DNA of 62,850 nucleotides, filler included, from Nitrospinae bacterium RIFCSPLOWO2_12_FULL_45_22 (GTDB taxonomy: Bacteria; 2-12-FULL-45-22): the NCBI GenBank assembly GCA_001803565.1. It is 7 parts of 7 records of this genome, joined end to end, with 100 filler letters (N's around TTAATTAATTAA, not from the genome) between each part and the next. Parts side by side here need not be neighbours in the genome. Positions count along the whole stretch, not along the records: positions 32,104 to 37,283 come from MHDQ01000180.1; positions 37,384 to 50,518 come from MHDQ01000181.1; 5 more parts are not named here. One strand, 5' to 3'. Both the position numbers and the translations under genes were made by a program. The notes beneath the pieces were generated by a model. The model was not told the DNA's origin. It did not search any database and was given only the letters and a program-made list of their open reading frames with translations. Below, in pieces: positions 25,693 through 44,934 of this stretch. Numbering within the stretch: the first letter of the stretch is position 1; each line of letters begins with the position of its first letter.

Positions 25693-27930
25693 ATGCTTAA
25701 CATTATTCAATATTTAGTAATTCTGAGGATAAAAATCATACTGTCTGTGGAAAAAGTAATAAGGCGGAAATATGTCTTGCTTTCTCTTCTAGGCATAGTA
25801 ATCAGCCTTATCCTAATACCTAGTCAGGCTTTAACTGAACCCAACACCTATATAAGGATATGGCCAGAGTTACCCGGGCCCTGGTATTTCAGATACCCTG
25901 AAGGGATAGCAATAGACAGGGATAATAATGTCTATATAGGTGATGGTTATAGTCACATCCAGAAATTTGACGCCAATGGCCGATTGATCTCCAAATGGGG
26001 TGGCTATGGCAGTGGCGATGGCCAGTTTATCCGCTCTCGAGGGATAGCAATAGATAATTCAGGAAATGTTTATGTAGTTGATAATGGTAATAACAGAATC
26101 CAGAAATTTGATGCTAATGGTCGCTTTATCAGGAAATGGGGCGAATATGGTAGCAGCGATGGCCAGTTTGAATACCCTGAAGGGATAGCGATAGATAGTT
26201 CGGGGAATGTTTATGTAGCTGATACTTACAATCATAGGATCCAGAAATTTGATCCCAATGGTAACTTTATCACTAAATGGGGCAGTTATGGTAGCGGTGA
26301 TGGCCAGTTTATTTGGCCGAAGGGCGTTGCTGTAAACTTTGCTGGTGACGTATATGTAGGTGAAGATTATATAGCTGATAGCGGTAATCACAGGATTCAG
26401 AAATTTGATGCTAATGGTCGCTTTATCAGGAAATGGGGCGAATATGGTAGCAGCGATGGCCAGTTTAACCACCCTGAATGGATAGCTATAGATGGTTCAG
26501 GGAATGTTTATGTGGCTGATACCTACAACTTTAGGATTCAGAAGTTTGATCCCAATGGTAATTTTATTACTAAATGGGGCAGCTATGGTAGTGGCGATGG
26601 CCAGTTTTCTAGTATTAGCGGGATAGCGGTGGGCAGCTTAGGGAAAGTCTATGTTGTGGATTTCGGCAATAACCGAGTCCAGAATTTTGACACTGAGGGT
26701 AACCTAATCGCAAAATGGCAAAGCAGTGGTATTAGTGATGGCTATTTCACTAACCCCGGAGATGTAGCGATAGATAGTTCAGGGAATGTGTATGTAGCCG
26801 ATAGCGGCAATCATAGAATCCAGAAGTTTGATGCCGACGGCAGGCTCATTACTAAATGGGGCAGTGAAGGTACTGGTGACGGTGAGTTTAAATATCCAGC
26901 CAGGGTAGGAGTGGATAGTTTAGGAAAGGTCTATGTGTTAGATAGTGTAGATAGTGGCAATCGTAGGGTCCAGAGGTTTGACGCCAATGGCCAGTTCATT
27001 ACAAAGTGGGAAGTCGGGGGGATGGTTGGTAGTGGTCCTGTCATTGGTATCTTAGATATGGCAGTAGATAATTCAGGTAATGTGTATCTTGCAGATAATT
27101 ATTATTATCGGTTTTATAATTTTATTAATGGCCGAATCTTGAAGTTTGATTCCAACGGTAAATTCATTACTGAATGGGAGAGGGCTGACGTATGGTGGCA
27201 GCCAATGGGAATAGCGGTAGACAATATGGGTTCTGTGTATGTTGCCGATAGGGTTAATAAAGAAATTGTTAAGTTTGACTCCAACGGAGGCTTTATTACT
27301 AAATGGGGGGGCAGGGGTAGTGGAACCGGTCAGTTCTCTGAACTGTGGGCAATAGCAGTAGATAGCGCCAGCAATGTCTACGTAAATGCTGATTCCCAAA
27401 TCCAGAGGTTTGACTCGGGTGGTGGCTTTATCACTAAATGGGGCAGTTATGGCGGTGATATTCTTCAGTTCGGTGGAAGTGTCGAGATAGCGGTAGACAA
27501 TTCGGGCAATGTTTATGTAGCTGATAGCGTTAATAACCGTATCCAGATTTTCCCACCGAATCCCTCTATAATGTTGCATCTTAATAATGATAGCTTCCGG
27601 CCAGATGGTATATTGGATTTATCTATCGACATCTGGGCAGGTACTGATAATTATATTGCCGATGCATATTTAGCCCTACTAGCACCTGATGGCAGGCTCT
27701 TCTTCTGGGGTCCGAGATTGAAGAGTTTCAGTGAGAAAGTCCAACCTGTATGTAGCTCCTGTGCGGTAGAGAATTATTCGGAAGTTATTATGTCCATACC
27801 TCTTGATGCCTCTATCACTATCGGACTCTATACTTTCTATGCGGTGCTGACCAAGGTAGGAAGTAATCCTCTGGAGCAAAATAATTGGCTCAGCAATCTA
27901 GCTCAAGCTACCTGTAAGTTTACAAAATAA
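25693..27930 (+). CDS. Secreted NHL-repeat beta-propeller protein with a C-terminal Ig-like domain (start may be GTG at 25747)
   Basis: About 12 repeats of F..P.GIAIDSSGNVYVADT.NHRIQKFD.NG.FITKWG; N-terminal signal peptide (LIPSQA). Confidence 0.9.
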   Translation: MLNIIQYLVILRIKIILSVEKVIRRKYVLLSLLGIVISLILIPSQALTEPNTYIRIWPELPGPWYFRYPEGIAIDRDNNVYIGDGYSHIQKFDANGRLISKWGGYGSGDGQFIRSRGIAIDNSGNVYVVDNGNNRIQKFDANGRFIRKWGEYGSSDGQFEYPEGIAIDSSGNVYVADTYNHRIQKFDPNGNFITKWGSYGSGDGQFIWPKGVAVNFAGDVYVGEDYIADSGNHRIQKFDANGRFIRKWGEYGSSDGQFNHPEWIAIDGSGNVYVADTYNFRIQKFDPNGNFITKWGSYGSGDGQFSSISGIAVGSLGKVYVVDFGNNRVQNFDTEGNLIAKWQSSGISDGYFTNPGDVAIDSSGNVYVADSGNHRIQKFDADGRLITKWGSEGTGDGEFKYPARVGVDSLGKVYVLDSVDSGNRRVQRFDANGQFITKWEVGGMVGSGPVIGILDMAVDNSGNVYLADNYYYRFYNFINGRILKFDSNGKFITEWERADVWWQPMGIAVDNMGSVYVADRVNKEIVKFDSNGGFITKWGGRGSGTGQFSELWAIAVDSASNVYVNADSQIQRFDSGGGFITKWGSYGGDILQFGGSVEIAVDNSGNVYVADSVNNRIQIFPPNPSIMLHLNNDSFRPDGILDLSIDIWAGTDNYIADAYLALLAPDGRLFFWGPRLKSFSEKVQPVCSSCAVENYSEVIMSIPLDASITIGLYTFYAVLTKVGSNPLEQNNWLSNLAQATCKFTK

Positions 27931-28496: not shown

Positions 28497-30631
28497 TCAT
28501 TTCCAGGATATTTCTCCTACTGCTATCCCGATATCCCGGGCATCTGGAGATATGCCGGCCACTAATGGGTTCCAAACCCGGNNNNNNNNNNNNNNNNNNN
28601 NNNNNNCCAGGATATTTCTCCTACTGCTATCCCGATATCCCGGGCATCTGGAGATATGCCGGCCACTAATGGGTTCCAAACCCGGTCTACTTTAAAGGTC
28701 AAAACCACTCTATCTTTCTCGGTATCAGGCACTGGGTAGCTTAGCAGGCGCCAATTGTTGTCTTGCAAGATGGTCTCACCCAGAAGGTGATGATCTAAAT
28801 AGATTTGAACTTTCACGGGTTTGCTTCTGATAGCCGGATGGCTGCTTAAGATAGGGATAAAGATGGTCGTCCCTTTAACTTCTTGCTCAAGGGATGCTGT
28901 TTTCTTACTCCATCTAAATTTGAACTGGTTATTCCAGGTTTCCCCATGATACCAACCGCCAAAATCGGTCTTTACCCCTTCTACAATTTTAATTGCGGCT
29001 AATGATAGGAAAAGAAAAAGTATGATCATTCTTAATTTTGGTAAGAGTTTTCTCTGAGGGATTTCGATATTACCCAGTCTAGCCGCGAGGGATATGAGGG
29101 ATAGGTTTAACCAAAACATCAGCTCTAAGGCATGGATATAAAATAGATCTTGAACAAAGCTATAGACCACAAATCCAACTAAAAAACCTAAGCTTGCACC
29201 CGCTAAGCTCCTGACCCGTCTATCTCCTCCCTGCATAGTCCTGATTCCTATCTTAAAGGCCAGGTACAATAACCAACCAAAGATGAGTAAGCCTAAAATA
29301 CCCCTCTCAGCCAGTATTTGGAGGTGGTTGTTATGGGCAGTGCCGTGGTCCTGGTGATAGGCGGGGTGAGAAGGAGGGATATGTTCCAGATAGTTCCATG
29401 CATATGATCCTAAGCCTGCGCCCATAAGGGGGTGTTCGGTAAATATAACTAAGGCAACTTTTCCCAAGTGGAGTCTAACATCTCCCTGGGAGATAGAAGA
29501 GAACCTTTCCGCAATCTTTAATTCGACCAGTAAAGGTCTTAAAAGAACCAACGATAAAGCCAATGCTAATGTTATGGTACCTAAAGACCACCAGATTTTC
29601 CGGCGGGGGTTTTTTCTTTTTGCAGGGGTTTGGCTTGTTAATATAAATAATAGCAGCATACAGACTATTACCACAGGGTACGATACCCATCCCCCCCTGG
29701 CATAACTGAGGACGAGATTAATCGTGACCAGTATTGCCGTTAATAGCAAGAGCCACTTTCGATAGCCTTTCTGTATGGATATTAGAGCAAAAAGAAAGGG
29801 AGAGACCAGAATCAGGTATTCTGCGTACCAGCGTGGATTCCAGAAGGTAGCATGCACACAGTGCGAGGGTCCATAACGAAAATAATTGCGTGACCTCTCG
29901 AAGGTATACTCGCTCCATTCCAGCGGCAGGCTAATGATCTCCAGGTAGTCTAGTAAGCCATATAAGTTAGTCAAAATAAAGGAGACTAAGAGCCAAAATA
30001 TCAACCAATTTATTTGCTTCAAATTATCAAGGTTATTAATTGCAAACAAATATAGCAATACCCCGAATAGCAAGTTTAGAATGCATTGCATGGTATAGAG
30101 CGGATAATGCTCATTTACATTGGCTACCGCCCGGAAAAACTGGAAGATATCAGACCATTGAAAGGTATTCTGATAGAGGTATATGAGATAGGGAATGGCT
30201 GAGACCAGGCTTATGAGGAGAAACAGGATAATTGGCAAATCCAGATGGGTTCTATAAAATCTCAAGTCCTTTTCTTTCAGGAGGCGAATAATCCAGCTTG
30301 CTATAATAAGGAGAAGTAATATATCCAGGAGAAAGAGGTAAGGGCCGCTCGGGTGATTGCCGAAGAGGGGGACAAAGAAAACTAATGCGTAGAGTCCCCA
30401 TACAGGTTTTATAGAGGCGCAAACAAGGCCTATCCCTAAAAAGGTCAGGATAATGATCTGGAAAGTAGAGCCCCAATGAGGAGGGTAGGGGCCCTCTACC
30501 AAAGATATGTTTCTGGCGTGGTAAATTAGATAGAAAAATAAAGTGCCGATCCATATAGCCGCAAGAGATAATAAGATTCTGAAGAAAGGCAGGAACTTGC
30601 GAGAAGGCGAATAGTATTTATTTGATATCAT
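28497..30631 (-). CDS. O-antigen ligase/Wzy-family membrane protein with a C-terminal soluble domain
   Basis: ATFWNP, LSYARGGW, HPLMGAGLGSY and AHNNHLQILAERGILG; true end at 28497 (GEISWK*) once the duplicated sequence around the N-gap is collapsed. Confidence 0.85.
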
Positions 30632-32103: not shown

Positions 32104-33769
32104 CCCGCTTATTGGCATGGCATGTTACGCAGATGGCCGAGTCATGGGCTTCTACGGAAACACCCGCAGGCATATGCACCTCACCCTGTACCCGCAACTG
32201 GTAAGAATGGGCCCGGCCACTGCTATCCGTTCGGTCGGTATTGGGAAAGCTATGAGGGTCGTGGCAGGTAGGGCAGGCAATGGGTGGCTGGCTGCCCGGC
32301 TCAAAGAGCGTCGCCGGTTTATCAGCCGTAGCATCAGCCGGGAAGATGGCCTCTTTACCCCGCATCTTTACCTGGATAAAGCCCTGGCCAGTATGGCACT
32401 CGACACAACTGGTACCTCCGGCCATATGCAGTTCTGGCTCTTTACTGTGGGCAGCATTTTTAAACTCATAATACTGCGGGTGGCACTGGGTACAGACATA
32501 GTGGTCATAGGTCAGATGGCTCTCCTCACTGGGGTGGTTGGCGCCGGGGCCATGGCACTGCTCGCACTGGATATTCATAATTTTTTGTATACCGGCCGTT
32601 GCCGGGTCATCCAGGAAGGCGGTCAGGGTAGCCCATTTCTCTTTGAGCCAGGCGATGGCGCTTTTATCTTTCGTCGGGTCGAAGCCCGCCTTCTTTGCCT
32701 CCTCATCAAACCCACCACTATTATCCGTCTCATCGTAGCCGGTCACGTGACACCGGATACAGTAAGGAGATGCAGCCGAGTAGCTGGCATAGGTGTTTTC
32801 AAATTTGGCAGCATGACCAGTGCTGATGAAAGAACTGTAGACCGCGGCCTCTTCGCCTACCAATGACGGGTTATTGTGGCAGGTAGCACAATTGGCTATT
32901 CCCACAAACTTACCGGCATAGACCTTGAATGAATATGAGGAGGTCACGCCATCTTCGCTGGTAGCGATAACCTTTATCTGGTAGATACCGGCCTTATCGG
33001 CCAGGAAGCGCTGATACTTAGGGGCCGGGTAAGTAGTGGTATCATAGTTATCCATCAACTTAGCTGTAGAGCCACCCGGTGGGGTCAATTCCCAGGACCA
33101 ACTGGTTATTGCCTTTTCCCGTTCATCATGGGCTTTCCCTTCNNNNNNNNNNNNNNNNNNNNNNNNNNNNNNNNNNNNNNNNNNNNNNNNNNNNNNNNNN
33201 NNNNNNNNNNNNNNNNNNNNNNNNNNNNNNNNNNNNNNNNNNNNNNNNNNNNNNNNNNNNNNNNNNNNNCCCCGGGTACCATAAGCCCCCTTCATCTTGG
33301 CCAGGGCAAAGGGGACGGTCTTGTCTACGACCGTGGCAGTGGCGCTGCCCGAGGCGATAACCTGTAGGGCAGCGGGGGATGAGCCCGGGGCAGTAAAGAC
33401 CCCCCAGAAGGTATAGCTGCCATTAGCTAAACTAGCTGGTACCGTAGCAGAAAAATAGGTCCCCTTACCTGTGGTAACCGGCCAGGAAGACTTATAGGCC
33501 ACTGGGTCAGTAGACCAGGCGCCATCCCCAGCCAGATAGACATAACTCTTATCCGGGAGTTGTAGAGCCAGATAAAAGTCTACGGTGTTGTTCTGATCCC
33601 CGGCCTTAATGTCATAATTCAGGGTAATGGTATCCTTAGCCTTGCCATACTTGGCCTTGTTGAGGATCAAACTGATGGATGGATTAGCGGCCATAACTAC
33701 CGAAACCGATGTCAAGCAAAAAGCCAATACTATTACTCCTATCGTCCATCTCTTGATCGCTACTCCCAT
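32104..33769 (-). CDS. Secreted multiheme c-type cytochrome (at least 7 CxxCH), 3'-truncated, with an internal N-gap
   Basis: Signal peptide; CATCH, CIRCH, CEQCH, CTQCH, CVECH, CPTCH and CVTCH. Confidence 0.9.
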
Positions 33770-33885
33770 CTCCTGCCTCCTTTCTTAAGTTCCAGCAACC
33801 ATAAAAAGAACCACTCTCACTTCCAAAAATTTGCTGCTCTTTATAATTAAAAGTTATTTCCTAGAAAACCACCCCCCTTCTGACT

Positions 33886-34086
33886 TCAATTGAGGGAAAA
33901 TTGTTCCCCTTTGACTCTTCTTACAATATCCTCTGCCTTACCCAGATAGATATTCTTAGTAACTACCCGGCTGGGCCCTGAGCCCCGGGCTTTGCCGCCC
34001 AGGGAGCCGTCTAGCTTTATCCGTTGAGAATGCCGGTAGTAGTAATGATATTTTCTTCCCCGTTTAACCTCATATATCTTTCCCAT
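33886..34086 (-). CDS. Small basic protein resembling the N-terminal DNA-binding region of IS1634-type transposases
   Basis: KRGRKYHYYYRHSQR...KNIYLGKAEDIV pattern; strong GGAGGAG RBS. Confidence 0.5.
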   Translation of the reverse strand: MGKIYEVKRGRKYHYYYRHSQRIKLDGSLGGKARGSGPSRVVTKNIYLGKAEDIVRRVKGEQFSLN

Positions 34087-34285
34087 CCTTCTCCTCCAGT
34101 TAGAGACCAGGTCAGGAGAGCCTCTCCTGCCTCGCCAGGTAGCACTGACTCTCCTAACTCAGCAAAGAGTGTCCTTCTAACTATCCAGCCACCACGGACG
34201 CTAAGTCTCACTAAGGTTTTTTTCTCTTTAGGCCCCTTTCGTCTCACTTCGTGGTTTTCGTGGTTAAATAGCACCAAATAAAATG

Positions 34286-34300
34286 GCAATTTTTGTGCCA
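34286..34300 (-). promoter_or_regulatory. Sigma54 (-24/-12) promoter facing the small ORF and the multiheme cytochrome
   Basis: Minus strand TGGCAC-AAAAA-TTGC. Confidence 0.75.
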
Positions 34301-34527
34301 TTAGATTTTTAACCCGGGCGATTGCTTATTAAATATTGGGAAGCCCACTTTTTATAGGGATAAGGGGCTCTTCAGGATATGGACTTTAATTAGGTAGGAC
34401 ACTTATGGGATGTAACCAAATTGATCCACTAAAAAGCTATGGTTTCGGCTTGAGGCAGATAGACAGAGGGATTACGGGGTGCAACACTTTGTTACTCAGG
34501 TGAGCCGAAATGGGGGCATCATATAGT

Positions 34528-35367
34528 TTACACCTCTAAAACGGTACCCACTGGGCAAAAGAAGAATTTCTCACCAAATTCCTGCAACATCCTTAATGCC
34601 GGTAGCATGCCGGTGCAATGGGACACCCCAATCTTTTGCACCGCGCCGGCCTTAAGCGCCCGAGTAGTCTCATCTAGTTGTTCCTGGCTGGTAAAGGCCA
34701 GATGGGTACCGCCAATTATGGCATAGATGCCGGACTTGCCGGTCTTTTCTCTTACATAGTTCAAAATATTCACCAGCCCGGCATGGGAGCAGCCGAGTAT
34801 TACTACTAACCCCTGGGCCGTCTCCATTACCACTGTGAGATCATCCTGGATCATATCTTGCTCATACCCCTTTGCTCCTTTGACTACCAGCTTAGGGTCA
34901 CCTTTTTCAAAGGTAGTGCAGCGGGGTATCTCACCGGTCAGGAAGAGCCCTGGAGCTATCTCTTGATACTGCTGGACAAAGACGAACTGGGCGCCATAAC
35001 TCTCCAGGATACTCCGTTTAAAAGGCATACCTACATCGAACTCTTTGCCCTCTATCTGGATAGAATAGCTGTCTTTAAAGATATCGGGATGGGCATATAC
35101 CTTTACCGGCCCTGAGGCTTGCAAGACAGCGAGTAAGCCCCCGGTATGGTCAGAGTGGTGATGGCTCAGGATAATGCCCTGGAGATTCCGTAAATCTTTT
35201 CTAAAGACCCGGGCATTATTGATAATCGTCATACCCTGGCCTGTATCTAAAAGGAAATTCCCCTGGTCGGTCTCCAGGAATACTGCCCAGCCATGCTCCG
35301 CAGTAGCCCCCCAACTGGCTACTCCGAAGACGCTATTTTCACACAATACTGTTATCTTCGCCTTCAT
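34528..35367 (-). CDS. MBL-fold metallo-hydrolase
   Basis: AEHGW, LLDTGQ, LSHHHSDHTGG, GCSHAG, GGTH and HCTG. Confidence 0.9.
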   Translation of the reverse strand: MKAKITVLCENSVFGVASWGATAEHGWAVFLETDQGNFLLDTGQGMTIINNARVFRKDLRNLQGIILSHHHSDHTGGLLAVLQASGPVKVYAHPDIFKDSYSIQIEGKEFDVGMPFKRSILESYGAQFVFVQQYQEIAPGLFLTGEIPRCTTFEKGDPKLVVKGAKGYEQDMIQDDLTVVMETAQGLVVILGCSHAGLVNILNYVREKTGKSGIYAIIGGTHLAFTSQEQLDETTRALKAGAVQKIGVSHCTGMLPALRMLQEFGEKFFFCPVGTVLEV

Positions 35368-35520
35368 AATCCCTTATCCCCCGGTTATCGTGGATTATTC
35401 ATAACCGCAGAGCTTGCTATATTGTAGTTGTGGAAAATAAAAAAGGCTATACTCCTTTCCACAAAAACAGATAACGCGAGTTGGCTTATTGTAGCCAACA
35501 AAGGGAAAGGAGATAGCCTT

Positions 35521-36777
35521 ATGGAACCTATATTTAGTGTATCGCAAAAAGCTAAAATTAGCAACGAGAGTTTGATGGTTGGGGTAGATATTGCCAAGAA
35601 GACTAATAAGGGGTATTGTCGTACTCCCGATGGCCAGGAGGTTAAGCCCTTTAATTTTGACAATAATATCCCTGGGTTCAATAATCTTTGGAAGACAATC
35701 CAGATAGCTATGGAGAGGTACAAGCTCAAAGGGGCCATAGTAGGATTTGAGTCTAGCGGTTCTTATGGGGAGCCTTTGCAGCACTTTCTGAAAGACAAGG
35801 CCCAGGTTCATCTGGTTCAAGTAAACCCTATGCACACCAAGCGGGTCAAAGAGCTTAATGACAACTCTCCTAACAAGAGCGATAAAAAGGATCCCAGGGT
35901 GATAGTCGATATTATCCAGTTGGGGCATTTTCTCAGTTGCACACTCCCAGAGGGTGCTGCTGCAGAGTTGCGTAACCTTAGCCATGAGAGAGATTTCCAG
36001 ATGAATTTGCACACCCAGATTTCTAATCGTCTCCACTGGTTGGTGTATCGGGTCTTTCCTGAGTTTACCCAAGTCATTAATGACCCCCTTTGCCAGACAG
36101 GTCGCTATCTCCTGAGGGAGTATAGCACGACTGGGCAGATAGCCGCTTTGGGTTTGGAGAGGCTTACCCGGATAATGAAGGAGAAGAGCCGGGGCCAACT
36201 GGGTCCCGGGCACGCCCTGAGGCTTTGGGAGGCAGCCAAAAATTCTGTAGGGATAAAGGTGGGCCTTGAGAGTATCTGTGGCGAGATAAGAAGAGTTTTG
36301 CAGCAGATAGAGCAAATAGAAGAGACCATTCAAGAGATAGAGGCCCAGATGCTTAAGTGGCTGGGAGAGGTCCCTTACAGTCCGAGACTGCTTTCTATCC
36401 CTGGGGTAAAGTTGATTACCGCTGCCGGTATTATAGGGGAGGTAGCGGATTTTAATAAGTTCTCTGGCCCGAAGGCCCTTATGAAATTGGCCGGGCTTAA
36501 TCTTTATGAGATAAGCTCCGGTAATTACCAGGGGGAACGGCACATCTCCAAACGGGGTCGGCCTTTGTTGAGAAAGCTGCTTTATTTTGCCGCTCTTAAT
36601 GCCACCAAAAGGGGTGGAATTATGTACCAGAAGTATCAAGAGATGATAGGGCGAGGCATGAAGAAGCTGAAAGCGCAGATAGCCATCTCCAGGAAGTTGC
36701 TCCGGCTTATGTATGCCCTGGTACGAGATAATAGAGACTATACGCATAACTACTCCGAGTTAAGAAAAGCGGCTTAG
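35521..36777 (+). CDS. IS110-family recombinase/transposase
   Basis: DEDD residues (VGVDIAK, GFESSG, KSDKKDP); Tnp_20 domain SIPGV...AGL..EISSG...ISKRGRPLLR; AAAGGAG RBS. Confidence 0.95.
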   Translation: MEPIFSVSQKAKISNESLMVGVDIAKKTNKGYCRTPDGQEVKPFNFDNNIPGFNNLWKTIQIAMERYKLKGAIVGFESSGSYGEPLQHFLKDKAQVHLVQVNPMHTKRVKELNDNSPNKSDKKDPRVIVDIIQLGHFLSCTLPEGAAAELRNLSHERDFQMNLHTQISNRLHWLVYRVFPEFTQVINDPLCQTGRYLLREYSTTGQIAALGLERLTRIMKEKSRGQLGPGHALRLWEAAKNSVGIKVGLESICGEIRRVLQQIEQIEETIQEIEAQMLKWLGEVPYSPRLLSIPGVKLITAAGIIGEVADFNKFSGPKALMKLAGLNLYEISSGNYQGERHISKRGRPLLRKLLYFAALNATKRGGIMYQKYQEMIGRGMKKLKAQIAISRKLLRLMYALVRDNRDYTHNYSELRKAA

Positions 36778-36783
36778 GGCTTT

Positions 36784-36940
36784 AGGAGGGGGAGATTATC
36801 ATCGGCGTCATTGAGGCGCTTAAGGCGACCTCCTCGCAGAGCTTATATAACTCCCTCTCCTCTGACCACCTAGCCTCTATGAAGCAAGGTCAGGGCACAG
36901 AGCTCTGTGATCCTCAAAGTACCAGAGTTAGGCAAGGTGG
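36784..36940 (+). ncRNA. Putative bridge/seek RNA of the IS110 element
   Basis: Two stem-enclosed internal loops. Loop 1 has GCGTC (36805-36809) and CGCAGAG (36835-36841), matching the target strands. Loop 2 has AGCAAG (36883-36888) and ACCAG (36921-36925), matching the donor junction strands. Confidence 0.7.
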
Positions 36941-37450
36941 AAAAAGGCAATAAAGCCGTAAAGAGTTTTATAAACAGGTTTATTCACTGTTCTTTTAAAA
37001 ATAGGGTTCTGGTTTTAGCAGTAGTTTCAAGGGGTTAGAGGGCTTTCCACAATTTAACGGAGTTATTAGTCTCCCCCCCAAGCCCCCCCTCATTACTACT
37101 ACTACTGCTAATAAAAAATACTTGACTACAATAAACCAGACGCAAAGAGGATAATGGGTCATTAGGTCATTGGGTGACTACGTTATTGCGCCATTACTTA
37201 ATAACCCAATAACCCAATAACGTAATGACCTATTGGGGGTCATTGCGTTCTTAGCGCCTTTGCGGTGTATAAGCGGTGTATAANNNNNNNNNNNNNNNNN
37301 NNNNNNNNNNNNNNNNNNNNNNNNNNNTTAATTAATTAANNNNNNNNNNNNNNNNNNNNNNNNNNNNNNNNNNNNNNNNNNNNGCACGAATAGAATTGAT
37401 GCCTACAAATGAGGCTGACCTTGTTATTGCGCGCAGAGCGAAATTGAGGG

Positions 37451-37480: not shown

Positions 37481-38872
37481 TTATTTCAGCTCCTGGAACT
37501 TGGTGCCATTGGCCCAGCCCCAGGCATCAAACCCACCCCGGGCCTTCCACATATCCTGGTACCGCGTGACCTTGGCCTTCATCTCCGGGTCAAGCCGCGC
37601 TACCCCAGCCCGATCCTTATGCGTTTTTTCTTCATATAGGGGAACGTAGGGCGGGAATTGTTCGGCCTTGGTTACTGCTCGATAGCCCGGTGCAGATCGC
37701 CAGAAATACTCCTTACTCAGCTCGGTCATGGTATACTTAGTATCGGGGATCGGCTGTCCAAACTTGAAACCCCCATACCAACCATAGCCTCTATAATCTC
37801 GCTGCCAATCGCCTATGGCAATAGTGGTTCTCCCCCAGGCTGTTCTACCATTATAGCTATTAGGATAGGGCTTCCAGGTTTGTTCGCCAAGTCCAATCCG
37901 GACATAGTTACCTTCATGGTCATACTGCTCCTCATGCAGTTGGAGCTTGGTATGTTTCTCTATCCAGTAGAGGATATACCCAAGATAGTAATTTGGATCT
38001 TTAGGTATAGCCTTGACCACCCAGCACTCTATGCCCCCATCCTCCCGGTAGGGGTTCTGACTATCACCCCAGACCCCCTGGCCCGGATAGACCGGGTTGT
38101 CTACAATGACCTTGGGGTCCCCCAGGATGTCATGACCCTTTATCCCATTAACCTCATAGAGGACATCCTCAGCGATAATCTCATAGGTATACTCCCAGAA
38201 TTGCCGCTCGCCATTGTCATCATTGCTTGCGGGAAAACCGAGGGTATCGTCCTGGCGGTCACCTCCGGCCGAGCGCCTCACTCGCCTCAGGGCCGGCACC
38301 CAGGAGTAGCGGTCCGGGTCCTTCCATTTACCCGGGGCATTATCATACTTGACTACCAGTTGGGCAAGCCCCCGGATCTCGGGTGGGTTATCCAGGATAG
38401 TGAAGGCCTTCTGGTAGATACTACTGATCCCCTGCCTATAGTGGATCACCTCATCAAACCTCTCCCAGGAATGGGTCCGCATGATATAAAAGTTCTTGCT
38501 AATCACCAAACCCCGTTTGTTTATAGTAGGCAGATAACCAAAATAATCCTGGGTCTTACCCCCCTCGGCCCCCCAGAAGGCGCATTCCCTGAACCAGAGC
38601 AGCTCCTCACCGGTATAGGGGACATCCTTGCGGGGCCAGGAGGGCTTCCAGGGGAAGGGGTCTTTAAGCACCCAGGGGTACTGCGGGTGGCGTTTATCCG
38701 GGGCAGTCAAGTCCTTTACTGGCTCAGCATAAGGGGTCCAGCCTTTAATGGTGACTGGTGCTGGGGCATATTTGTCTGCCGGCTGTTGCGCTAATACCGT
38801 ACCTGGCTGGAGCCACCAGAACCCCAGGGCAAGCAAGGCAACCATTAGAAACATCATCTTTCTCTTTTGCAT
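37481..38872 (-). CDS. DUF1329/LolA-like periplasmic protein, copy 2
   Basis: Signal peptide; PPEIRG..L, WVPALRRVRR..GGDRQDD and PKDPNYY motifs. Confidence 0.75.
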   Translation of the reverse strand: MQKRKMMFLMVALLALGFWWLQPGTVLAQQPADKYAPAPVTIKGWTPYAEPVKDLTAPDKRHPQYPWVLKDPFPWKPSWPRKDVPYTGEELLWFRECAFWGAEGGKTQDYFGYLPTINKRGLVISKNFYIMRTHSWERFDEVIHYRQGISSIYQKAFTILDNPPEIRGLAQLVVKYDNAPGKWKDPDRYSWVPALRRVRRSAGGDRQDDTLGFPASNDDNGERQFWEYTYEIIAEDVLYEVNGIKGHDILGDPKVIVDNPVYPGQGVWGDSQNPYREDGGIECWVVKAIPKDPNYYLGYILYWIEKHTKLQLHEEQYDHEGNYVRIGLGEQTWKPYPNSYNGRTAWGRTTIAIGDWQRDYRGYGWYGGFKFGQPIPDTKYTMTELSKEYFWRSAPGYRAVTKAEQFPPYVPLYEEKTHKDRAGVARLDPEMKAKVTRYQDMWKARGGFDAWGWANGTKFQELK

Positions 38873-39256
38873 GAGCTATCTCCTCCTTTCTCCGATTCTA
38901 CTGCGCTTAATCAGTGGGCCATAATATCCATTAGTGTAATTGCCCAATATCTTGTGCGGAATTAATATCACCGCAGAGACACAGAGAAGACCCGTAAGGC
39001 GTGAGAGCGTTAGGCATAAGGAGATGCCCCCTCACCCTCACACCTTACTCCTTACGATCCGTAAGAAGACTCTGCGCCTCAGCGTCTCTGCGGTTCAATG
39101 GCATCTTCTACAACTTATTGAGTAATTACCCATTAGTAACAACTCTGTCATCTCACCCCCTTTCTCCTCACTTTGTAGGCACGGATTTATCCGTGCATTA
39201 TAAATAGCACGAATAGAATTCGTGTGCAGGCCGGGGGCTTGTACCCCCGCCCTGGC

Positions 39257-40912
39257 TCAAAACTCGTACTTGACCTTGAACTCGACATAGTTCCGGTCGT
39301 TCAATGGCCCCCAGGCTAAATCGTTTGGGTGGCCATAGAAGTAGTGAAAGAGCACAGAGGCCGTGAGGTAGTTAGAGAAGGTATAGCTGGTCCCGAATGT
39401 ATTTTGCGAGGTCATGCGGTTAAAGGGGGTGATCATATTGATCCAGGTGATAGACCAGCGGTCTTCTGTAAAGGGAGCGCGCCAGGTTAGTGCTGGGAGG
39501 TAAATGGCACTGATATTATTTGCGGGGCTGGCAGGCTGCGGCACCGGTATCCCACCATCCCGGCCAAAGAGATAGGTAAATGACCAGTAGAGCATGAAGC
39601 TAAAATCCTGCCGGAAATAGCTCTCTACCCCCCAAATCTGTCTATACAGGCTCCGCTTACTATAGCCATCATACTTATTCAGCAAGGGGTTAGTCAACCC
39701 CAGGGCGATAACACTCTCATTCAGGTTCGGGAGATACTTATTCAGGTCCAGGGCATTCTCAAAGAACATGCCCCAGTTTCGGTTTAGGAACCAGAAACTT
39801 TTATCCAGGGCTAGGCCCATAGTATGCAGCCGGGTAGGCTTGGGCTCGACAAAGTACCGGGGTGCCCCTCCTACTATGCGGAAGGCCCGGCGGAAACCGG
39901 TCATGGACTTGTCCCAGTAATAGGCATAGAAGAGGTGTCCGTTCCAGCCGCCATAATTGAACCCCAGCCGGGTGATCCACTCATGGTCTTTGACATTCCA
40001 GGTAGGCATATCGGCCCGCATCCGGGTAGTCAGGGCCGCCGGGTTAATACCAATGTCTGAGGGGCTTCCTTGGGGCCAGACATAGCCCGCAGGATAATAA
40101 TAGTTCCGCTCATAGTCAAAGTTCCAGATCAACTGAAAATAGAGGTTAGGGGTGAATTGCCTGATGACCGAGAGCATCCAGGTAGGGAGATTGACATACT
40201 CAAAGTCGGTCTGGGTAAGGCGGGGGTTGGCGGCAGTGCCATACCTGAGGTCTACCGGGAAGACAGAATCATGCACCTTGGTATCTACCTTGGCCCAGAT
40301 ATGCTGCTGCTTACCGAGTTGGATGATCCAGCCCGGCGGGGTCCATTTGAGATAAAGCTCACGCCAGATGCGCTTGGTATCGTTATAATACTCATCGGCC
40401 TCCTTGACTGCCGGGTAAAGGTTACGGCGGGCAGCACTGCGAGTACCACCAAAGCTGTGCTTGAAGCTATGGTCCCAATCATACAGGGCATTGTAGCGGA
40501 AGTCCCAGATGCTGACAAACTCCAGGCTCGGTATAGCCGGTGGGACATAGCGGGCCTCCAACTCCGTGAACCACTCGATCTTCTCCAGGTTATAGTTCCG
40601 CTTCCGGAGAGCACCCGCGGGCAGTCCTGGGTTAGAGTTATAGCGGCCGGCGGCAGGCGGGTTGGGATTGCCCCGCATAGTCTTACCTCCACCTTCTCTC
40701 CCTCTGCCATTCAGGAACAAGCCGGTGTCATTCCAGAGAACCCCCTTCAGCCACAGGCCCGGGACCGCTTCTTCCACATTATTCAGGGCATGACCAAAGG
40801 GATCAAAATTACTCAGGTCAAACCACTTACCCTCCTCCTGGGCCTGGGCCAGCGTACTCAGGAACCCCAGGGCCAGGAGACAGACTATTACTGAGAACAT
40901 ATGCCTTTTCAT
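39257..40912 (-). CDS. Outer-membrane beta-barrel protein (DUF1302-like), copy 2
   Basis: Signal peptide; RELYL...LGKQQHIWAKVD; C-terminal beta-signal YVEFKVKYEF. Confidence 0.75.
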   Translation of the reverse strand: MKRHMFSVIVCLLALGFLSTLAQAQEEGKWFDLSNFDPFGHALNNVEEAVPGLWLKGVLWNDTGLFLNGRGREGGGKTMRGNPNPPAAGRYNSNPGLPAGALRKRNYNLEKIEWFTELEARYVPPAIPSLEFVSIWDFRYNALYDWDHSFKHSFGGTRSAARRNLYPAVKEADEYYNDTKRIWRELYLKWTPPGWIIQLGKQQHIWAKVDTKVHDSVFPVDLRYGTAANPRLTQTDFEYVNLPTWMLSVIRQFTPNLYFQLIWNFDYERNYYYPAGYVWPQGSPSDIGINPAALTTRMRADMPTWNVKDHEWITRLGFNYGGWNGHLFYAYYWDKSMTGFRRAFRIVGGAPRYFVEPKPTRLHTMGLALDKSFWFLNRNWGMFFENALDLNKYLPNLNESVIALGLTNPLLNKYDGYSKRSLYRQIWGVESYFRQDFSFMLYWSFTYLFGRDGGIPVPQPASPANNISAIYLPALTWRAPFTEDRWSITWINMITPFNRMTSQNTFGTSYTFSNYLTASVLFHYFYGHPNDLAWGPLNDRNYVEFKVKYEF

Positions 40913-41754: not shown

Positions 41755-43146
41755 CTACTTCAGCTCCTGGAACTTGGTACCATTGGCCCAGCCCCAGGGA
41801 TCATAACCACCACGGGCCTTCCACATATCCTGGCTGGCCCTGGCCTTCTTGATCAGCTCCGGGTCGAGCCGTTCTACCCCAACCCGGTCTTTACACTTCT
41901 TCTCTAAATAGAAATAGGGGTAGGGGGGGAAATGATCAATCTTGGTTACTGGCCGATAGCCCGGTACCGGGCGCCAGAAATACTCCTTTTGCAGCTCGGG
42001 TATAGTATACTTGGTATCAGGGATGGGCTGGCCATATTTGAAGCCACCATACCAGGCCATCCCCCAAAAATCTCTCTGCCAATCACCCAATAAGATAGTG
42101 GTCCTGCCCCAGGCCACTCTACCTTTATAGGAATTGGGATAGGCCTTCCAGCTTTGTTCGCCTATCCCCATCCGGATATAGTTGCCTTCATGGTCATACT
42201 GCTCCTCATGCAGTGGCAGCTTGGTACGCTTCTCTATCCAGTCGAGGATATACCCTAGATAATATTTCGGGTCTTTAGGCGTGAGCTTAACTACCCAGCA
42301 CTCTAAGCCCCCATCCTCCCGGTAGGGGTTCTGACCATCTCCCCAGACCCCGGCTCCAGGATAGATCGGGTTGTCCACAATAACCTTGGGGTCTCCCAGG
42401 ATGGCCTGACCTCTTGCCCCATTAACCTCATAAAGGATGTCTTCACCAATGATCTCATAGGTATATTCCCAGTATTGCCGCTCGCCATTATCGTCATTGC
42501 TCAAGGGATAACCCAGGGAGTCGTCCTGCCGGTCACCACCGGCCGAGCGCCTCACCCGCCGCAAAGCCGGTACCCAGGCATAGCGGTCCGGGTCTTTCCA
42601 CTTGCCCGGGGCATTGTTGTATTTGACTACCAGTTGCGCAAAGCCCCGCAGCTCGGGCGGGTTATCCAGGATAGTGAAGACTTTTTGGTAGAGGCCATTG
42701 ACCCCCATCTTGTAGTGGATGATCTCATCAAACTTCTCCCAGTAATGGGTGCGCATGATATAGAAGTTTTTGCTGACGACCAAGCCCCGGCGGTTCCGCA
42801 TGACGGAATACCCACAATAATCCGCGGTCTTACCTCCCTCGGCCCCCCAGAAGGCGCATTCCCTAAGCCAGAGCAACTCCTCACCGGTATACGGGACATC
42901 CTTGGTGGGCCAGGAGGGCTTCCAGGGAAAGGGGTCTTTAAGTACCCAGGGGTACTGTGGATGGCGCTTATCCGGGGCAGTCCAGTCCTTTACCGGCTCA
43001 GCATAAGGTGTCCAGCCCTTGATGGTTGATGGTGCAGGGGCATACTTGTCTGCCGGCGCCTGCGCTGACACTACAACTGGATTAAACCACCAGAACCCCA
43101 GGCTCAGCAATAAAACCATTAGGAACATCATCTTTCTCTTCTGCAT
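41755..43146 (-). CDS. DUF1329/LolA-like periplasmic protein, copy 1
   Basis: Paralog of 37481-38872 with the same length (463 aa) and WVPALRRVRR motif. Confidence 0.75.
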   Translation of the reverse strand: MQKRKMMFLMVLLLSLGFWWFNPVVVSAQAPADKYAPAPSTIKGWTPYAEPVKDWTAPDKRHPQYPWVLKDPFPWKPSWPTKDVPYTGEELLWLRECAFWGAEGGKTADYCGYSVMRNRRGLVVSKNFYIMRTHYWEKFDEIIHYKMGVNGLYQKVFTILDNPPELRGFAQLVVKYNNAPGKWKDPDRYAWVPALRRVRRSAGGDRQDDSLGYPLSNDDNGERQYWEYTYEIIGEDILYEVNGARGQAILGDPKVIVDNPIYPGAGVWGDGQNPYREDGGLECWVVKLTPKDPKYYLGYILDWIEKRTKLPLHEEQYDHEGNYIRMGIGEQSWKAYPNSYKGRVAWGRTTILLGDWQRDFWGMAWYGGFKYGQPIPDTKYTIPELQKEYFWRPVPGYRPVTKIDHFPPYPYFYLEKKCKDRVGVERLDPELIKKARASQDMWKARGGYDPWGWANGTKFQELK

Positions 43147-43278
43147 GAGCTATCCTCCTCCTTATCTACGATTCTGCTGCAGTTAAGCCGTAAACTTTTA
43201 GTATCTTTTTATTAACAAACCTATCCTCTCACCCCCTTTCTCCTCATTACTGACGGGGGGATGGCCCCCCGCTCCAGC

Positions 43279-44934
43279 TTAAAACTCGTACTTGACCTTG
43301 AATTCGACATAATTCCGATCGTTCAATGGCCCCCAGAGTAAGTCGTTCGGGTGGCCATAGAAATAGTGAAAGAGCACCGAGGCCGTGAGGTAGTTAGAGA
43401 AGGTATAGCTGGTCCCGAATGTATTTTGCGAGGTCATGCGGTTAAGGGGGGTGATCATATTGATCCAACTGATAGACCAGCGGTCTTCGGTAAAGGGAGC
43501 GCGCCAGGTTAGTGCCGGGAGGTAAATGGCGCTGATATTATTTGCGGGGCTGGCAGGCTGCGGTGCCGGTATCCCTCCATCCCGACCAAAGACATAGGTA
43601 AATGCCCAGTAGAGCAGGAAGCTAAAATCCTGCATGAAATAGCTCTCTACACCCCAGATATGTTTATACAGGGTCCGCTTACTATAGCCATCATACTTAT
43701 TCAGCAAGGGGTTAGTCAACCCCAGGGCTATAACACTCTCATTTAGATTCGGGAGATATTTGTTAAGCAGAAAATAATTCTCGAAGAACATGGCCCAGTT
43801 GCGCTTCAGGAACCAGAAGTTGGTATCCAGGGCAATACCGGTATAATGCACCCGGGTCGGCTTGGGCTCGACAAAGTAGCGCGGCGCACCCCCTACTATG
43901 CGGGAGGCCCGGCGGAAACCAGTAAGAGACTTATCCCAGACATAGGCATAGAGCAGGTGCCCGTTCCAGCGGCCGACATTAAACCCAAGCCGGGTGATCC
44001 ACTCATGGTCTTTGACATTCCAGGTGGGCATATCGGCCCGCATCCGGGTAGTCAGGGCCGCCGGGTTGATACCGATATCTGAGGGGCTCCCCGAAGGCCA
44101 GACATAGCCCGCAGGATAGGTGTAGTTCCTTTCGTAGTCAAAGTTCCAGATCAACTGAAAATAAACGTGTGACCCTAACTGTTTGGTGGCCGAGAGCATC
44201 CAGGTAGGGATATTGACATACTCATAGTCAGTCTGGGTAAGGCGGGGATTGGCAGCAGTGCCATACCTTAAGTCCACTGGGAAGAGGTCATCATGAACCT
44301 TGGTGTCTACCTTTGCCCAGATATGCTGCTGCTTGCCTAATTGGATGATCCAGCCCGGTGGGGTCCATTTGATATAGAACTCCCGCCAGATGCGCTTGGT
44401 ATCGTTATAATACTCATCGGCTTCTTTTACGGCTGGGTAGAGGTTACGGCGGGCAGCACTGGTAGTAGCACCGAAGCTGTGCTTGAAGCTATGGTCCCAG
44501 TCATACAGGGCATTGTAGCGGAAATCCCAGATGCTGATAAACTCAAGGTTCGGTATAGCCGGTGGGACATAGCGGGCCTCCAGCTCCGTGAACCACTCGA
44601 TCTTCTCCAGGTTATAGTTCCGCTTCCGGAGAGCACCGGCGGGCAGTCCTGGGTTAGAGTTATAGCGACCCGCCGCAGGTGGGTTGGGATTGCCCCGCAT
44701 AGCCTTACCTCCACCTTCTCGTCCTCTGCCATTCAGGAACAACCCCGTATCATTCCAGATAATCCCCTTCAGGTAGAGGCCCGGGACACACTCTTCGACA
44801 TTGTCCAGGGCATGGCCAAAGGGATCGAAATTACTCAGGTCAAACCATTTGCCCTCCTCCTGTGCCTGCGCCGTACCCAGGAAGAACATGCATAGGAGCA
44901 AGCACAAACTCAGAACACTCATCTTCGCTTTCAT
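43279..44934 (-). CDS. Outer-membrane beta-barrel protein (DUF1302-like), copy 1
   Basis: Paralog of 39257-40912; AAAGGAGGG RBS before MKAKMS; C-terminal KVKYEF. Confidence 0.75.
   Translation of the reverse strand: MKAKMSVLSLCLLLCMFFLGTAQAQEEGKWFDLSNFDPFGHALDNVEECVPGLYLKGIIWNDTGLFLNGRGREGGGKAMRGNPNPPAAGRYNSNPGLPAGALRKRNYNLEKIEWFTELEARYVPPAIPNLEFISIWDFRYNALYDWDHSFKHSFGATTSAARRNLYPAVKEADEYYNDTKRIWREFYIKWTPPGWIIQLGKQQHIWAKVDTKVHDDLFPVDLRYGTAANPRLTQTDYEYVNIPTWMLSATKQLGSHVYFQLIWNFDYERNYTYPAGYVWPSGSPSDIGINPAALTTRMRADMPTWNVKDHEWITRLGFNVGRWNGHLLYAYVWDKSLTGFRRASRIVGGAPRYFVEPKPTRVHYTGIALDTNFWFLKRNWAMFFENYFLLNKYLPNLNESVIALGLTNPLLNKYDGYSKRTLYKHIWGVESYFMQDFSFLLYWAFTYVFGRDGGIPAPQPASPANNISAIYLPALTWRAPFTEDRWSISWINMITPLNRMTSQNTFGTSYTFSNYLTASVLFHYFYGHPNDLLWGPLNDRNYVEFKVKYEF

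What the first reader, a model, noticed from the sequence alone, without database searches (positions are those of the whole stretch)
35405..37150. IS110/IS1111 bridge-recombinase system whose RNA appears programmed against a host repeat family
Seen in sequence: the element is bounded by AG cores. Excision rebuilds the empty site AACCGCAG-AG-ACGCAAAG and the donor junction ATAAACC-AG-CTTGCT. The non-coding region after the recombinase folds into two modules. Module 1: stem 36784-36794/36851-36861 encloses GCGTC (reverse complement of the right target half), a hairpin, then CGCAGAG (left target half plus core). Module 2: stem about 36866-36878/36924-36940 encloses AGCAAG (reverse complement of the right donor half), the palindrome CACAGAGCTCTGTG, then ACCAG (left donor half plus core). 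Both loops use the same right-then-left order. Established: IS110-family recombinases use a bispecific bridge/seek RNA, and IS1111-type members encode it downstream. Inference: this is an intact RNA-guided recombinase with an AG core that could be reprogrammed. The guide matches are only 5-7 nt, so their shared geometry is the main support.
Basis: partly seen in the sequence, partly recalled or inferred. Interest (0 to 1): 0.85.

Follow-up and report, generated by a model that had tools for sequence, protein, structure and literature searches.

The report
RNA-guided IS110/IS1111 insertion sequence, intact
This is an intact mobile element whose recombinase appears to be steered by its own two-loop guide RNA into a short host repeat; the kind is already known, but its many wild relatives show the guide being naturally re-written to match new targets.

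Summary
A 1727-bp element (35413-37139) sits between two AG dinucleotides. It encodes an intact 418-aa IS110-family DEDD recombinase, followed by a two-module non-coding RNA.

- **Ends:** metagenome contigs from two runs join 35410 directly to 37138, which is the empty site.
- **Structure:** in 51 distinct relatives the RNA fold is conserved. 96.5% of cells pair and 24 of 34 pairs show compensatory changes.
- **Target loop:** across 42 guide types from 64 insertions in 23 target classes, the 5' arm of loop 1 matches the reverse complement of core-G plus the right flank (6.93 of 8 against 4.34 permuted). The 3' arm matches the left flank plus AG (6.31 against 4.24). No permutation out of 10,000 reached either value. 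A separate metagenome set repeated this.
- **Donor loop:** loop 2 matches the element's own ends, and its 3' arm tracks three natural right-end variants.
- **Promoter:** joining the ends would give TTGACT-17 nt-TATATT.

The arm order is the reverse of IS621, as published for IS1111 seekRNAs. RNA expression and protein binding were not shown.

Verdict: a new member of a known kind. One part remains unexplained: a third, sequence-conserved block (about 36975-37121) whose core motif also lies near transposase genes of other IS families.

The parts
35403..35410 (+). Left target half (AACCGCAG) in host DNA
   Evidence: Its last 5 nt plus the AG core equal the 3' arm guide CGCAGAG.
35411..35412 (.). 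Left copy of the AG core dinucleotide
   Evidence: AG flanks all 68 elements whose two ends were found. The empty-site joint has a 2-nt ambiguity.
35413..35520 (+). Left end (108 nt non-coding). CTTGCT is the donor half. The -10 hexamer TATATT is at 35418-23 and the subterminal inverted repeat TATTGTAGT at 35420-28.
   Evidence: CTTGCTAT was the motif used to locate the left end in the 68 elements.
35521..36777 (+). 418-aa DEDD recombinase (IS110-family transposase), intact
   Evidence: PF01548 4e-22 and PF02371 2.5e-20. NF033542 scores 205 bits against a cut-off of 140. It aligns to IS621 (8wt6) over both domains. D23, E77, D121, D124 and S332/S333-G334 are invariant in 30 relatives.
36786..36859 (+). 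RNA module 1, the target-binding loop. Closing stem 36786-98/36848-59; 5' arm 36801-12 (guide TCGGCGTC at 36802-09); hairpin 36813-32; 3' arm 36833-47 (guide CGCAGAG at 36835-41).
   Evidence: for the structure; for covariation between guides and flanks.
36865..36940 (+). RNA module 2, the donor-binding loop. Closing stem 36865-76/36930-40; 5' arm with AGCAAG at 36883-88 (reverse complement of the left end CTTGCT); hairpin 36893-36913; 3' arm with ACCAG at 36921-25 (right end plus core).
36975..37121 (+). Third conserved non-coding block ('module 3'), function unknown. It holds CTTTCCACA, then the C-rich mirror motif AGTCTCCCCCCC-AAG-CCCCCCCTCATT, then (ACT)n and an A-rich tract.
   Evidence: The whole tail downstream of the RNA modules is 191 of 208 aligned positions identical to L001, although the proteins are 66% identical. 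No consensus RNA structure in 25 sequences. The motif occurs in at least 120 metagenome contigs.
37122..37137 (+). Right end. The -35 hexamer TTGACT is at 37122-27, the subterminal inverted repeat ACTACAATA at 37125-33, and the donor half AAACC at 37133-37.
37138..37139 (.). Right copy of the AG core
37140..37147 (+). Right target half (ACGCAAAG) in host DNA
   Evidence: Core-G plus ACGC pairs with GCGTC of the 5' arm.
37155..37232 (.). Imperfect palindrome in the right flank, part of a high-copy host repeat. An inverted copy of the target motif follows at about 37258-37272.
   Evidence: Weak hairpin-type hit. Summed contig depth is 42-303 at 37140-37219, against roughly 1-23 in the adjacent bins inside the element. 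Sequence read.

Best explanation
This is an intact IS1111-type member of the IS110 family, 1727 bp long, with an AG core.

Proposed mechanism (inferred from the anatomy and from the published family mechanism):
1. The recombinase excises the element as a circle by joining the two AG cores.
2. The junction places a -35 box from the right end 17 nt from a -10 box in the left end. This would drive transcription of the recombinase gene and of the RNA encoded just after it.
3. That RNA folds into two internal-loop modules.
4. Loop 1 reads the target. [quoted passage not shown] 5. Loop 2 reads the element's own joined ends with the same geometry.
6. The recombinase, bound to this bridge/seek RNA, then exchanges strands at AG and inserts the element without a duplication.

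The preferred site CGCAG-AG-ACGC... belongs to a short repeat that recurs in the host genome.

Shown here: the anatomy, the ends, the conserved RNA fold, the guide-flank covariation and the empty site. Inferred: the circle, transcription, RNA-protein binding and the strand-exchange chemistry.
For: **Protein.** PF01548 plus PF02371. NF033542 'IS110 family RNA-guided transposase' scores 205 bits against a cut-off of 140. It aligns to IS621 over both domains, with D23, E77, D121 and D124 opposite D, E, D and D of IS621 and S333-G334 opposite its SG. These columns are invariant in 30 relatives.

**Ends.** Copies within five metagenome-assembled genomes lose similarity exactly at AG|CTTGCT and at AAACCAG|. 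All 68 elements with both ends found have AG on both sides. Contigs of X2 and X4 join 35410 to 37138.

**RNA fold.** Across 51 distinct sequences, 34 consensus pairs, 24 of them with compensatory changes. 96.5% of cells pair, against 86.5% when shuffled and 36-54% when slid by 1-3 columns. 170 cells carry double changes against 35.7 expected (0 of 500 shuffles). Frequent G-U pairs (for example 18 at pair 16/99 and 27 at 111/178) fit an RNA of the + strand.

**Target loop.** 42 guide types from 64 insertions. The 5' arm scores 6.93 of 8 against 4.34 +/- 0.18. The 3' arm scores 6.31 against 4.24 +/- 0.16. The six non-core positions score 4.26 against 1.87. None of 10,000 permutations reached any observed value. 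There are 23 target classes. Replication on 17 guide types from metagenome contigs gave 6.71 against 4.58 and 6.53 against 4.70, again 0 of 10,000.

**Donor loop.** The pentamers ACCAG, ACAAG and ATAAG in the 3' arm go with right ends AAACCAG, AAACAAG and AAATAAG. The remaining sequence (L040) has GCCAG with an AAACCAG right end.

**Junction promoter.** The spacer is 17 nt in 44 of 47 distinct end pairs. No promoter-like site was found in the linear left end.

**Order of arms.** It agrees with IS1111 seekRNAs (Siddiquee 2024, sections read).
Against: - No RNA data: none of the 20 runs that hold the sequence is on record as RNA.
- No circle junction was seen in the contigs.
- This copy's 5' guide matches its own right flank at only 6 of 8 positions.
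- Three of the four runs laid hold a form with 265 bp deleted inside the recombinase gene (36174-36438). In X1 depth is zero across three bins inside the deleted stretch. Part of the population is therefore non-autonomous.
- Some relatives sit in flanks that fit their guides poorly: L169 scores 3 of 8, L053 4 of 8, L040 4 of 8 and L024 4 of 8 on the 5' arm; L008 and L065 score 3 of 8 on the 3' arm.
- The permutation test ignores relatedness of the elements.
- The structure scored was derived from the same alignment.
- The empty-site contigs have only 28 nt on the shorter side, in a repeat-rich flank.
- Rfam gave no match to the RNA.
Confidence: 0.88

Rival explanations
1. The anatomy is right, but this particular copy is a fossil. 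It no longer moves, because its guide has drifted from its site and it lacks a promoter of its own.
For: There are 2 mismatches of 8 between the 5' guide and the right flank. No promoter-like site lies in the left end of the linear form. A 265-bp internal deletion form occurs at the same locus in 3 of 4 runs. No RNA holder is listed.
Against: The ORF is full length, with all catalytic columns intact. Both loops and both ends are intact. Contigs show the empty site. They also show element ends joined to other flanks, at 37139 in X4 and at 35406 in X1. Relatives with 6 of 8 matches are common among evidently multi-copy elements.
Confidence: 0.08
2. The short matches are chance. The region after the gene is only a structured 3' untranslated region or terminator with no guiding role.
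For: In the window alone the matches are 5-7 nt. The fold z-score is only -2.19. No Rfam family matches.
Against: Guide-flank covariation across 42 and then 17 guide types, with 0 of 10,000 permutations reaching it. The donor-arm pentamer tracks three right-end variants. Only 2 of 10,000 arm shuffles reach the window's own score. No terminator-like site lies in the region.
Confidence: 0.02
3. The conserved modules act as DNA, as protein-binding sites near the right end, and not as RNA.
For: The block after them (36975-37121) is conserved in sequence without any RNA structure. So at least part of this region may act as DNA or as unstructured RNA.
Against: The stems keep pairing through double changes and use G-U pairs, which would be A-C mismatches on the other strand. 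The loop arms read both strands of the target in the way published for bridge and seek RNAs.
Confidence: 0.02

Closest known systems
IS1111-group elements with a seekRNA (ISEc11, ISPa11, ISKpn4, ISPst6; Siddiquee et al. 2024, PMC11187229; sections 6, 9, 12 and 13 read)
   Same: The long non-coding region lies downstream of the gene. There are subterminal inverted repeats. The segment complementary to the top strand lies 5' of the one complementary to the bottom strand, and the two overlap at the insertion point. Targets are specific sites, often repeats.
   Different: The recombinase has 418 aa, against 330-350 aa stated for IS1111-family transposases. The second (donor) loop is evident here. 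The clade's ends, CTTGCT...AAACC with an AG core, are its own. No experimental data exist.
IS621 bridge recombinase and bridge RNA (Durrant et al. 2024, PMC11208160, passages read; PDB 8wt6)
   Same: A DEDD recombinase with a C-terminal Ser-Gly domain. One RNA with a target-binding loop followed by a donor-binding loop, each reading both DNA strands around a 2-nt core. A promoter forms at the circle junction. The target is a host repeat.
   Different: In IS621 the RNA lies upstream in the left end. [quoted passage not shown] The IS621 core is CT, here AG. Here the 5' arm of the donor loop never pairs with the core (G in 29 and A in 22 of 51 sequences). Protein similarity is distant (E = 3.8e-11).
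ISPpu9 and ISPpu10 of Pseudomonas putida (Pares-Guillen et al. 2025, PMC12288879, passages read)
   Same: IS110-family elements that insert into repetitive extragenic palindromes. ISPpu9 recombines at an AG dinucleotide. ISPpu9 can carry an extra non-coding module downstream of the gene.
   Different: ISPpu9 is assigned to the IS110 group, without inverted repeats, and forms no junction promoter. Its extra module (ssr9) has its own copies of the end boxes. No such internal end copies were recognised here.

Membership tests
IS110 family (DEDD RNA-guided transposases) | N-terminal DEDD/RuvC-like domain plus the C-terminal Transposase_20 domain | tested here: met
   PF01548 4.1e-22 and PF02371 2.5e-20. 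NF033542 scores 205.4 bits against a cut-off of 140.
IS110 family (DEDD RNA-guided transposases) | Catalytic D, E, D, D and the Ser-Gly of the C-terminal domain are present | tested here: met
   D23, E77, D121 and D124 align with D, E, D and D of IS621, and S333-G334 with its SG. The columns are invariant in 30 relatives. Which IS621 residues are catalytic is recalled, not taken from a call.
IS110 family (DEDD RNA-guided transposases) | Site-specific insertion at a shared core dinucleotide without target duplication | tested here: met
   AG on both sides in 68 of 68 elements. The empty-site joint skips exactly 1727 nt with a 2-nt overlap.
IS110 family (DEDD RNA-guided transposases) | Circular intermediate that creates a junction promoter | tested here: inconclusive
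   Sequence only: TTGACT, then 10 nt, AG and 5 nt, then TATATT, which gives a 17-nt spacer. This holds in 44 of 47 distinct end pairs. No circle junction was seen in the contigs.
IS1111 group | Subterminal inverted repeats (7-17 bp according to Durrant 2024) | tested here: met
   A 9-bp exact repeat, TATTGTAGT, at 35420-28 and inverted at 37125-33. It starts 7 nt and 4 nt inside the ends.
IS1111 group | Long non-coding right end that carries the guide RNA; short left end | tested here: met
   The left end is 108 nt and the right end 362 nt. The RNA modules lie at 36786-36940.
IS1111 group | Segment complementary to the top strand lies 5' of the segment complementary to the bottom strand | tested here: met
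   compared with Siddiquee section 9.
IS1111 group | Transposase of 330-350 aa (Siddiquee 2024) | tested here: not met
   418 aa here. The listed relatives have 414-439 aa, apart from one of 333 aa (P0019).
IS1111 group | Phylogenetic placement inside the IS1111 clade | not tested
   No named reference IS sequences were fetched. The listed plasmid-borne relatives are 31-35% identical and are annotated only as 'IS110 family transposase' or 'transposase'.
Bridge RNA / seekRNA | Two internal loops closed by stems that are conserved through compensatory changes | tested here: met
   24 of 34 pairs show double changes. 96.5% of cells pair. 0 of 500 shuffles reach the observed values.
Bridge RNA / seekRNA | Target-loop arms covary with the DNA flanking the element | tested here: met
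   on two independent sets; 0 of 10,000 permutations in each.
Bridge RNA / seekRNA | Donor-loop arms are complementary to the element's own ends | tested here: met
   The 3' arm tracks three right-end variants. The 5' arm AGCAAG is the reverse complement of the left end CTTGCT, which never varies, so that arm gives no covariation test.
Bridge RNA / seekRNA | The RNA is made and is bound by the recombinase | not testable with these tools
   No RNA holder is listed among the runs.
DnaA-dependent basal unwinding system (considered for module 3) | DnaA box within about 16 bp of at least three 3'-GAT-5' trios (Pelliciari 2021) | tested here: not met
   A box-like TT(A/T)TCCACA and (ACT)n repeats are present. 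However, about 41 nt separate them, as read from the sequences.

The most novel reading that the evidence does not exclude
Besides the two-loop guide RNA, the element carries a third non-coding module (about 36975-37121). It is conserved in sequence but not in RNA structure. Its 25-29-nt C-rich mirror motif also lies just after the transposase genes of IS3-type elements, after an IS21-type IstB gene, and before a DDE_Tnp_1_4 transposase gene.

The boldest reading is that this is a portable accessory module exchanged between unrelated IS families. It would recruit a host factor, such as DnaA through the adjacent box-like TT(A/T)TCCACA, or Rho through the unstructured C-rich RNA. That would help end opening or insulate the element from transcription.
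Probability: 0.2. Interest if true: 0.65.

Novelty: new member of a known kind. Interest (0 to 1): 0.4.

Why it matters
The mechanism was published in 2024, so the element itself is not a surprise. Three things give it modest value.

1. It belongs to a large environmental clade (Desulfobacterota, Nitrospirota, Omnitrophota and other uncultured lineages, by the record titles). The clade keeps one RNA scaffold and one donor sequence while its target guides have been rewritten to at least 23 target classes. That is a ready-made natural map of which guide positions matter: LT-5 to LT-1 plus AG, and core-G plus RT+1 to RT+7.

2. It combines a long IS110-sized recombinase with the IS1111 layout and an AG core. 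Only the target loop's 5' arm reads the core. Both features could inform the engineering of orthogonal bridge recombinases.

3. The unexplained third block, shared with other IS families, is a lead worth a separate look.

Tried and rejected
- **Own genome:** none is held, so copy number in the host could not be counted.
- **Rfam:** at E <= 1 it gave only a weak hairpin-type hit (mir-592 model, 28 bits against a cut-off of 67) in the right flank. Nothing matched the RNA modules or module 3.
- **RNA evidence:** no RNA holder is listed among the 22 runs.
- **Circle junction:** none among the joints of the four runs laid.
- **Module 3 as an RNA:** 4 sequences gave 17 pairs with no compensatory change. 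25 sequences gave no consensus pair at all.
- **Module 3 motif as a terminal inverted repeat of the IS3-type elements:** an inverted copy (up to 3 substitutions) was found in only one of the 120 loci, about 4 kb away from the motif. The best left-end matches were 17-23 of 41-43 positions in the 10 of 11 loci that returned one.
- **Module 3 as a DnaA-box/DnaA-trio unwinding unit:** the spacing criterion is not met (one search compared).
- **Module 3 as a small ORF:** the frame is not kept, because the C runs and the gap vary in length (read).
- **Literature search for the motif string:** only two unrelated papers.
- **Right-flank palindrome:** not repeated elsewhere in the window, apart from a 30-nt motif at 22720-49.
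- **Plasmid collection:** no named close relative; all 2144 matching records are under 60% identity.
- two scripts failed or mis-matched through regex slips and were corrected.
- **Supplementary files:** those of the cited papers (IS lists, target logos) could not be opened. They may already list members of this clade.
Full report
**What is there.** The window is a chain of draft contigs joined by N-TTAATTAATTAA-N linkers. The finding lies on the piece 32104-37283. An ORF at 35521-36777 (+) gives a 418-aa protein with PF01548 and PF02371. It scores 205 bits on NF033542, 'IS110 family RNA-guided transposase', against a cut-off of 140. It aligns to the solved IS621 and ISCro4 recombinases over both domains. 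The D, E, D, D and Ser-Gly positions are kept and are invariant in 30 relatives. No whole genome is held for this window.

**Ends.** A scan of one genome per species found 141 relatives, of which 80 loci were kept. In five metagenome-assembled genomes with 3 to 8 copies each, similarity between copies stops exactly at AG|CTTGCT on the left and at ...AAACCAG| on the right (one genome has ...AAATAAG|). The flanks differ between genomes.

Using these end motifs, both ends were found in 68 of 81 sources (80 loci plus the window). The other 13 are cut by contig ends or did not match the pattern. All 68 have AG at both sides, and lengths run from 1559 to 1810 bp.

For the window itself, Logan contigs of two runs from different studies (X2, X4) join 35410 directly to 37138. 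They skip 1727 bp with a 2-nt ambiguity, which is the uninterrupted site. The shorter side is only 28 nt and the flank is repetitive, so a paralogous site cannot be excluded. Other contigs carry the element's ends joined to different flanks, at 37139 in X4 and at 35406 in X1.

**The RNA.** The 51 distinct sequences downstream of the stop codon align cleanly. RNAalifold gives two modules, each a closing stem, an internal loop and an inner hairpin. There are 34 pairs, 24 of them with compensatory changes.

Counted on that structure, 96.5% of cells pair, against 86.5% in shuffles and 36-54% when the partners are slid by 1-3 columns. 170 cells carry double changes against 35.7 expected, and 0 of 500 shuffles reach the observed value. 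The structure was derived from the same alignment, which favours it. Even so, the double changes and the many G-U pairs argue for an RNA of the + strand.

In window coordinates:
- Module 1: stem 36786-98/36848-59, arms 36801-12 and 36833-47, hairpin 36813-32.
- Module 2: stem 36865-76/36930-40, arms 36877-92 and 36914-29, hairpin 36893-36913.

**Do the loops read the flanks?** For the 64 of 68 elements with enough flank (L011, L043, L045 and L072 were dropped), I slid the expected 8-mers along each arm. I then collapsed the set to 42 distinct guide pairs, using the first insertion of each.
- The 5' arm of loop 1 matches the reverse complement of core-G plus the first 7 right-flank bases at 6.93 of 8 positions. 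Permuted pairings give 4.34 +/- 0.18.
- The 3' arm matches the last 6 left-flank bases plus AG at 6.31 of 8, against 4.24 +/- 0.16.
- Without the constant core, the score is 4.26 of 6 against 1.87.
- No permutation out of 10,000 reached any observed value.

Position by position, LT-6 is not read (match fraction 0.07), LT-5 to LT-1 are read (0.76-0.90), and all eight positions of the 5' arm are read (0.71-0.93). The targets fall into 23 classes.

The permutation ignores relatedness of the elements, so a second set was taken from metagenome contigs found through an unrelated motif. In that set 19 insertions and 17 guide types gave 6.71 against 4.58 and 6.53 against 4.70, again 0 of 10,000.

There are misfits: L169 (3 of 8), L053, L040 and L024 (4 of 8 each) on the 5' arm, and L008 and L065 (3 of 8) on the 3' arm.

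The window's own copy scores 6 of 8 and 7 of 8. Two of 10,000 arm shuffles do as well. The only foreign insertions that its guides fit as well (4 of 63) share its target class.

**Donor loop.** The left end CTTGCT never varies, and the 5' arm of loop 2 always holds its reverse complement AGCAAG. The right end varies, and the 3' arm follows it. ACCAG goes with AAACCAG (44 sequences), ACAAG with AAACAAG (5) and ATAAG with AAATAAG (1). The remaining sequence has GCCAG.

The base that would face core-G in the donor 5' arm is G (29 sequences) or A (22), never C. The equivalent position of the target loop pairs in 88% of guide types.

**Promoter and repeats.** The right end carries TTGACT at 37122-27 and the left end TATATT at 35418-23. 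Joined through one AG, they would be 17 nt apart. The same spacing holds in 44 of 47 distinct end pairs. The linear left end has no promoter-like site. A 9-bp subterminal inverted repeat lies 7 nt and 4 nt inside the ends.

**Host repeat.** The reconstructed site recurs in the window with up to 3 mismatches at four places, against 0.04 expected. The core of the guide-defined site, CGCAGAGRCRC, recurs three times against 0.03 expected. Two of these form an inverted pair around about 90 nt, which is the same layout as the occupied site and its right flank. Contig depth over 37140-37219 is 42-303, against roughly 1-23 in the adjacent bins inside the element.

[quoted passage not shown] Here the order is reversed. 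That is what Siddiquee et al. report for IS1111 seekRNAs, with the RNA downstream of the gene (sections 9 and 12).

Subterminal repeats and a long right end also fit the IS1111 group. The protein length of 418 aa does not fit: IS1111 transposases are given as 330-350 aa and the IS110 subgroup as 395-455 aa. An AG core and REP targeting are known from ISPpu9 (passages).

The listed relatives in the plasmid collection are 31-35% identical and carry no IS name. The closest proteins in the large collection are 77% and 66% identical, all from metagenomes. I could not open the papers' supplementary IS tables, which may already include this clade.

**Loose ends.**
- *Deletion variant.* Three of the four runs hold a form lacking 36174-36438 (265 bp, out of frame). 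In X1 depth is zero across three bins inside the deleted stretch.
- *Third conserved block.* Between the RNA and the -35 box lies a block (about 36975-37121). The tail that contains it is 191 of 208 aligned positions identical to L001, although the proteins are 66% identical. It has no conserved RNA structure.
Of these, 62 lie at right ends of this clade, 56 lie elsewhere and 2 are cut. Among the loci examined elsewhere, the motif lies 25-31 nt after IS3-type orfB genes (6 loci), 143 nt after an IstB gene and 146 nt before a DDE_Tnp_1_4 gene.
- *Ideas ruled out.* It is not a terminal inverted repeat. A DnaA-box/DnaA-trio reading fails on spacing. Its role is open.

**Verdict.** This is a new member, and probably a distinct environmental subgroup, of a known kind. 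Expression, RNA-protein binding and activity remain to be shown.

Noticed in passing
window 36174-36438: Contigs of 3 of the 4 metagenome runs laid (X1, X4, X10) carry the element with a 265-bp internal deletion in the recombinase gene, which is not a multiple of three. In X1 depth is zero across three bins inside the deleted stretch (36180-36419).
   Followed up: partly
window 36975-37121; loci L081-L200: A third non-coding block, conserved in sequence but not in RNA structure. Its motif AGTCTCCCCC-N(2-8)-CCCCCCTCATT also lies just after IS3-type orfB genes, after an IstB gene and before a DDE_Tnp_1_4 gene in unrelated contigs. It is preceded by a DnaA-box-like TT(A/T)TCCACA and followed by (ACT)n repeats.
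   Followed up: partly
window 34528-35367 (-): A metallo-beta-lactamase-superfamily gene (PF00753, 2.6e-13) starts 43 nt from the left end of the element. The insertion therefore sits where that gene's promoter would be expected.
   Followed up: no
window 38969-39095: Two unoccupied copies of the target motif in inverted orientation around about 90 nt. This is a REP/MITE-like unit with the same layout as the occupied site plus its right flank (37140-37272).
   Followed up: partly
loci L169 and L001: L169 and L001 carry identical target-loop arms. The right flank of L169 fits its 5' guide at only 3 of 8 positions. This could be an off-target insertion or a later rearrangement.
   Followed up: no
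window 25893-27547: A long array of about 141-nt tandem repeats (up to 11 copies, 62-100% identical to the reference copy). It was not examined further.
   Followed up: no
window 37482-40054 and 41756-44076: A duplicated block of about 2.5 kb (79-92% identical) that includes the LolA_like gene at 37481-38872.
   Followed up: no
window 28503-28685 and 33143-33269: An exact 79-nt direct repeat on either side of a 25-N run, and a separate 127-N run. These are probably scaffolding gaps.
   Followed up: no
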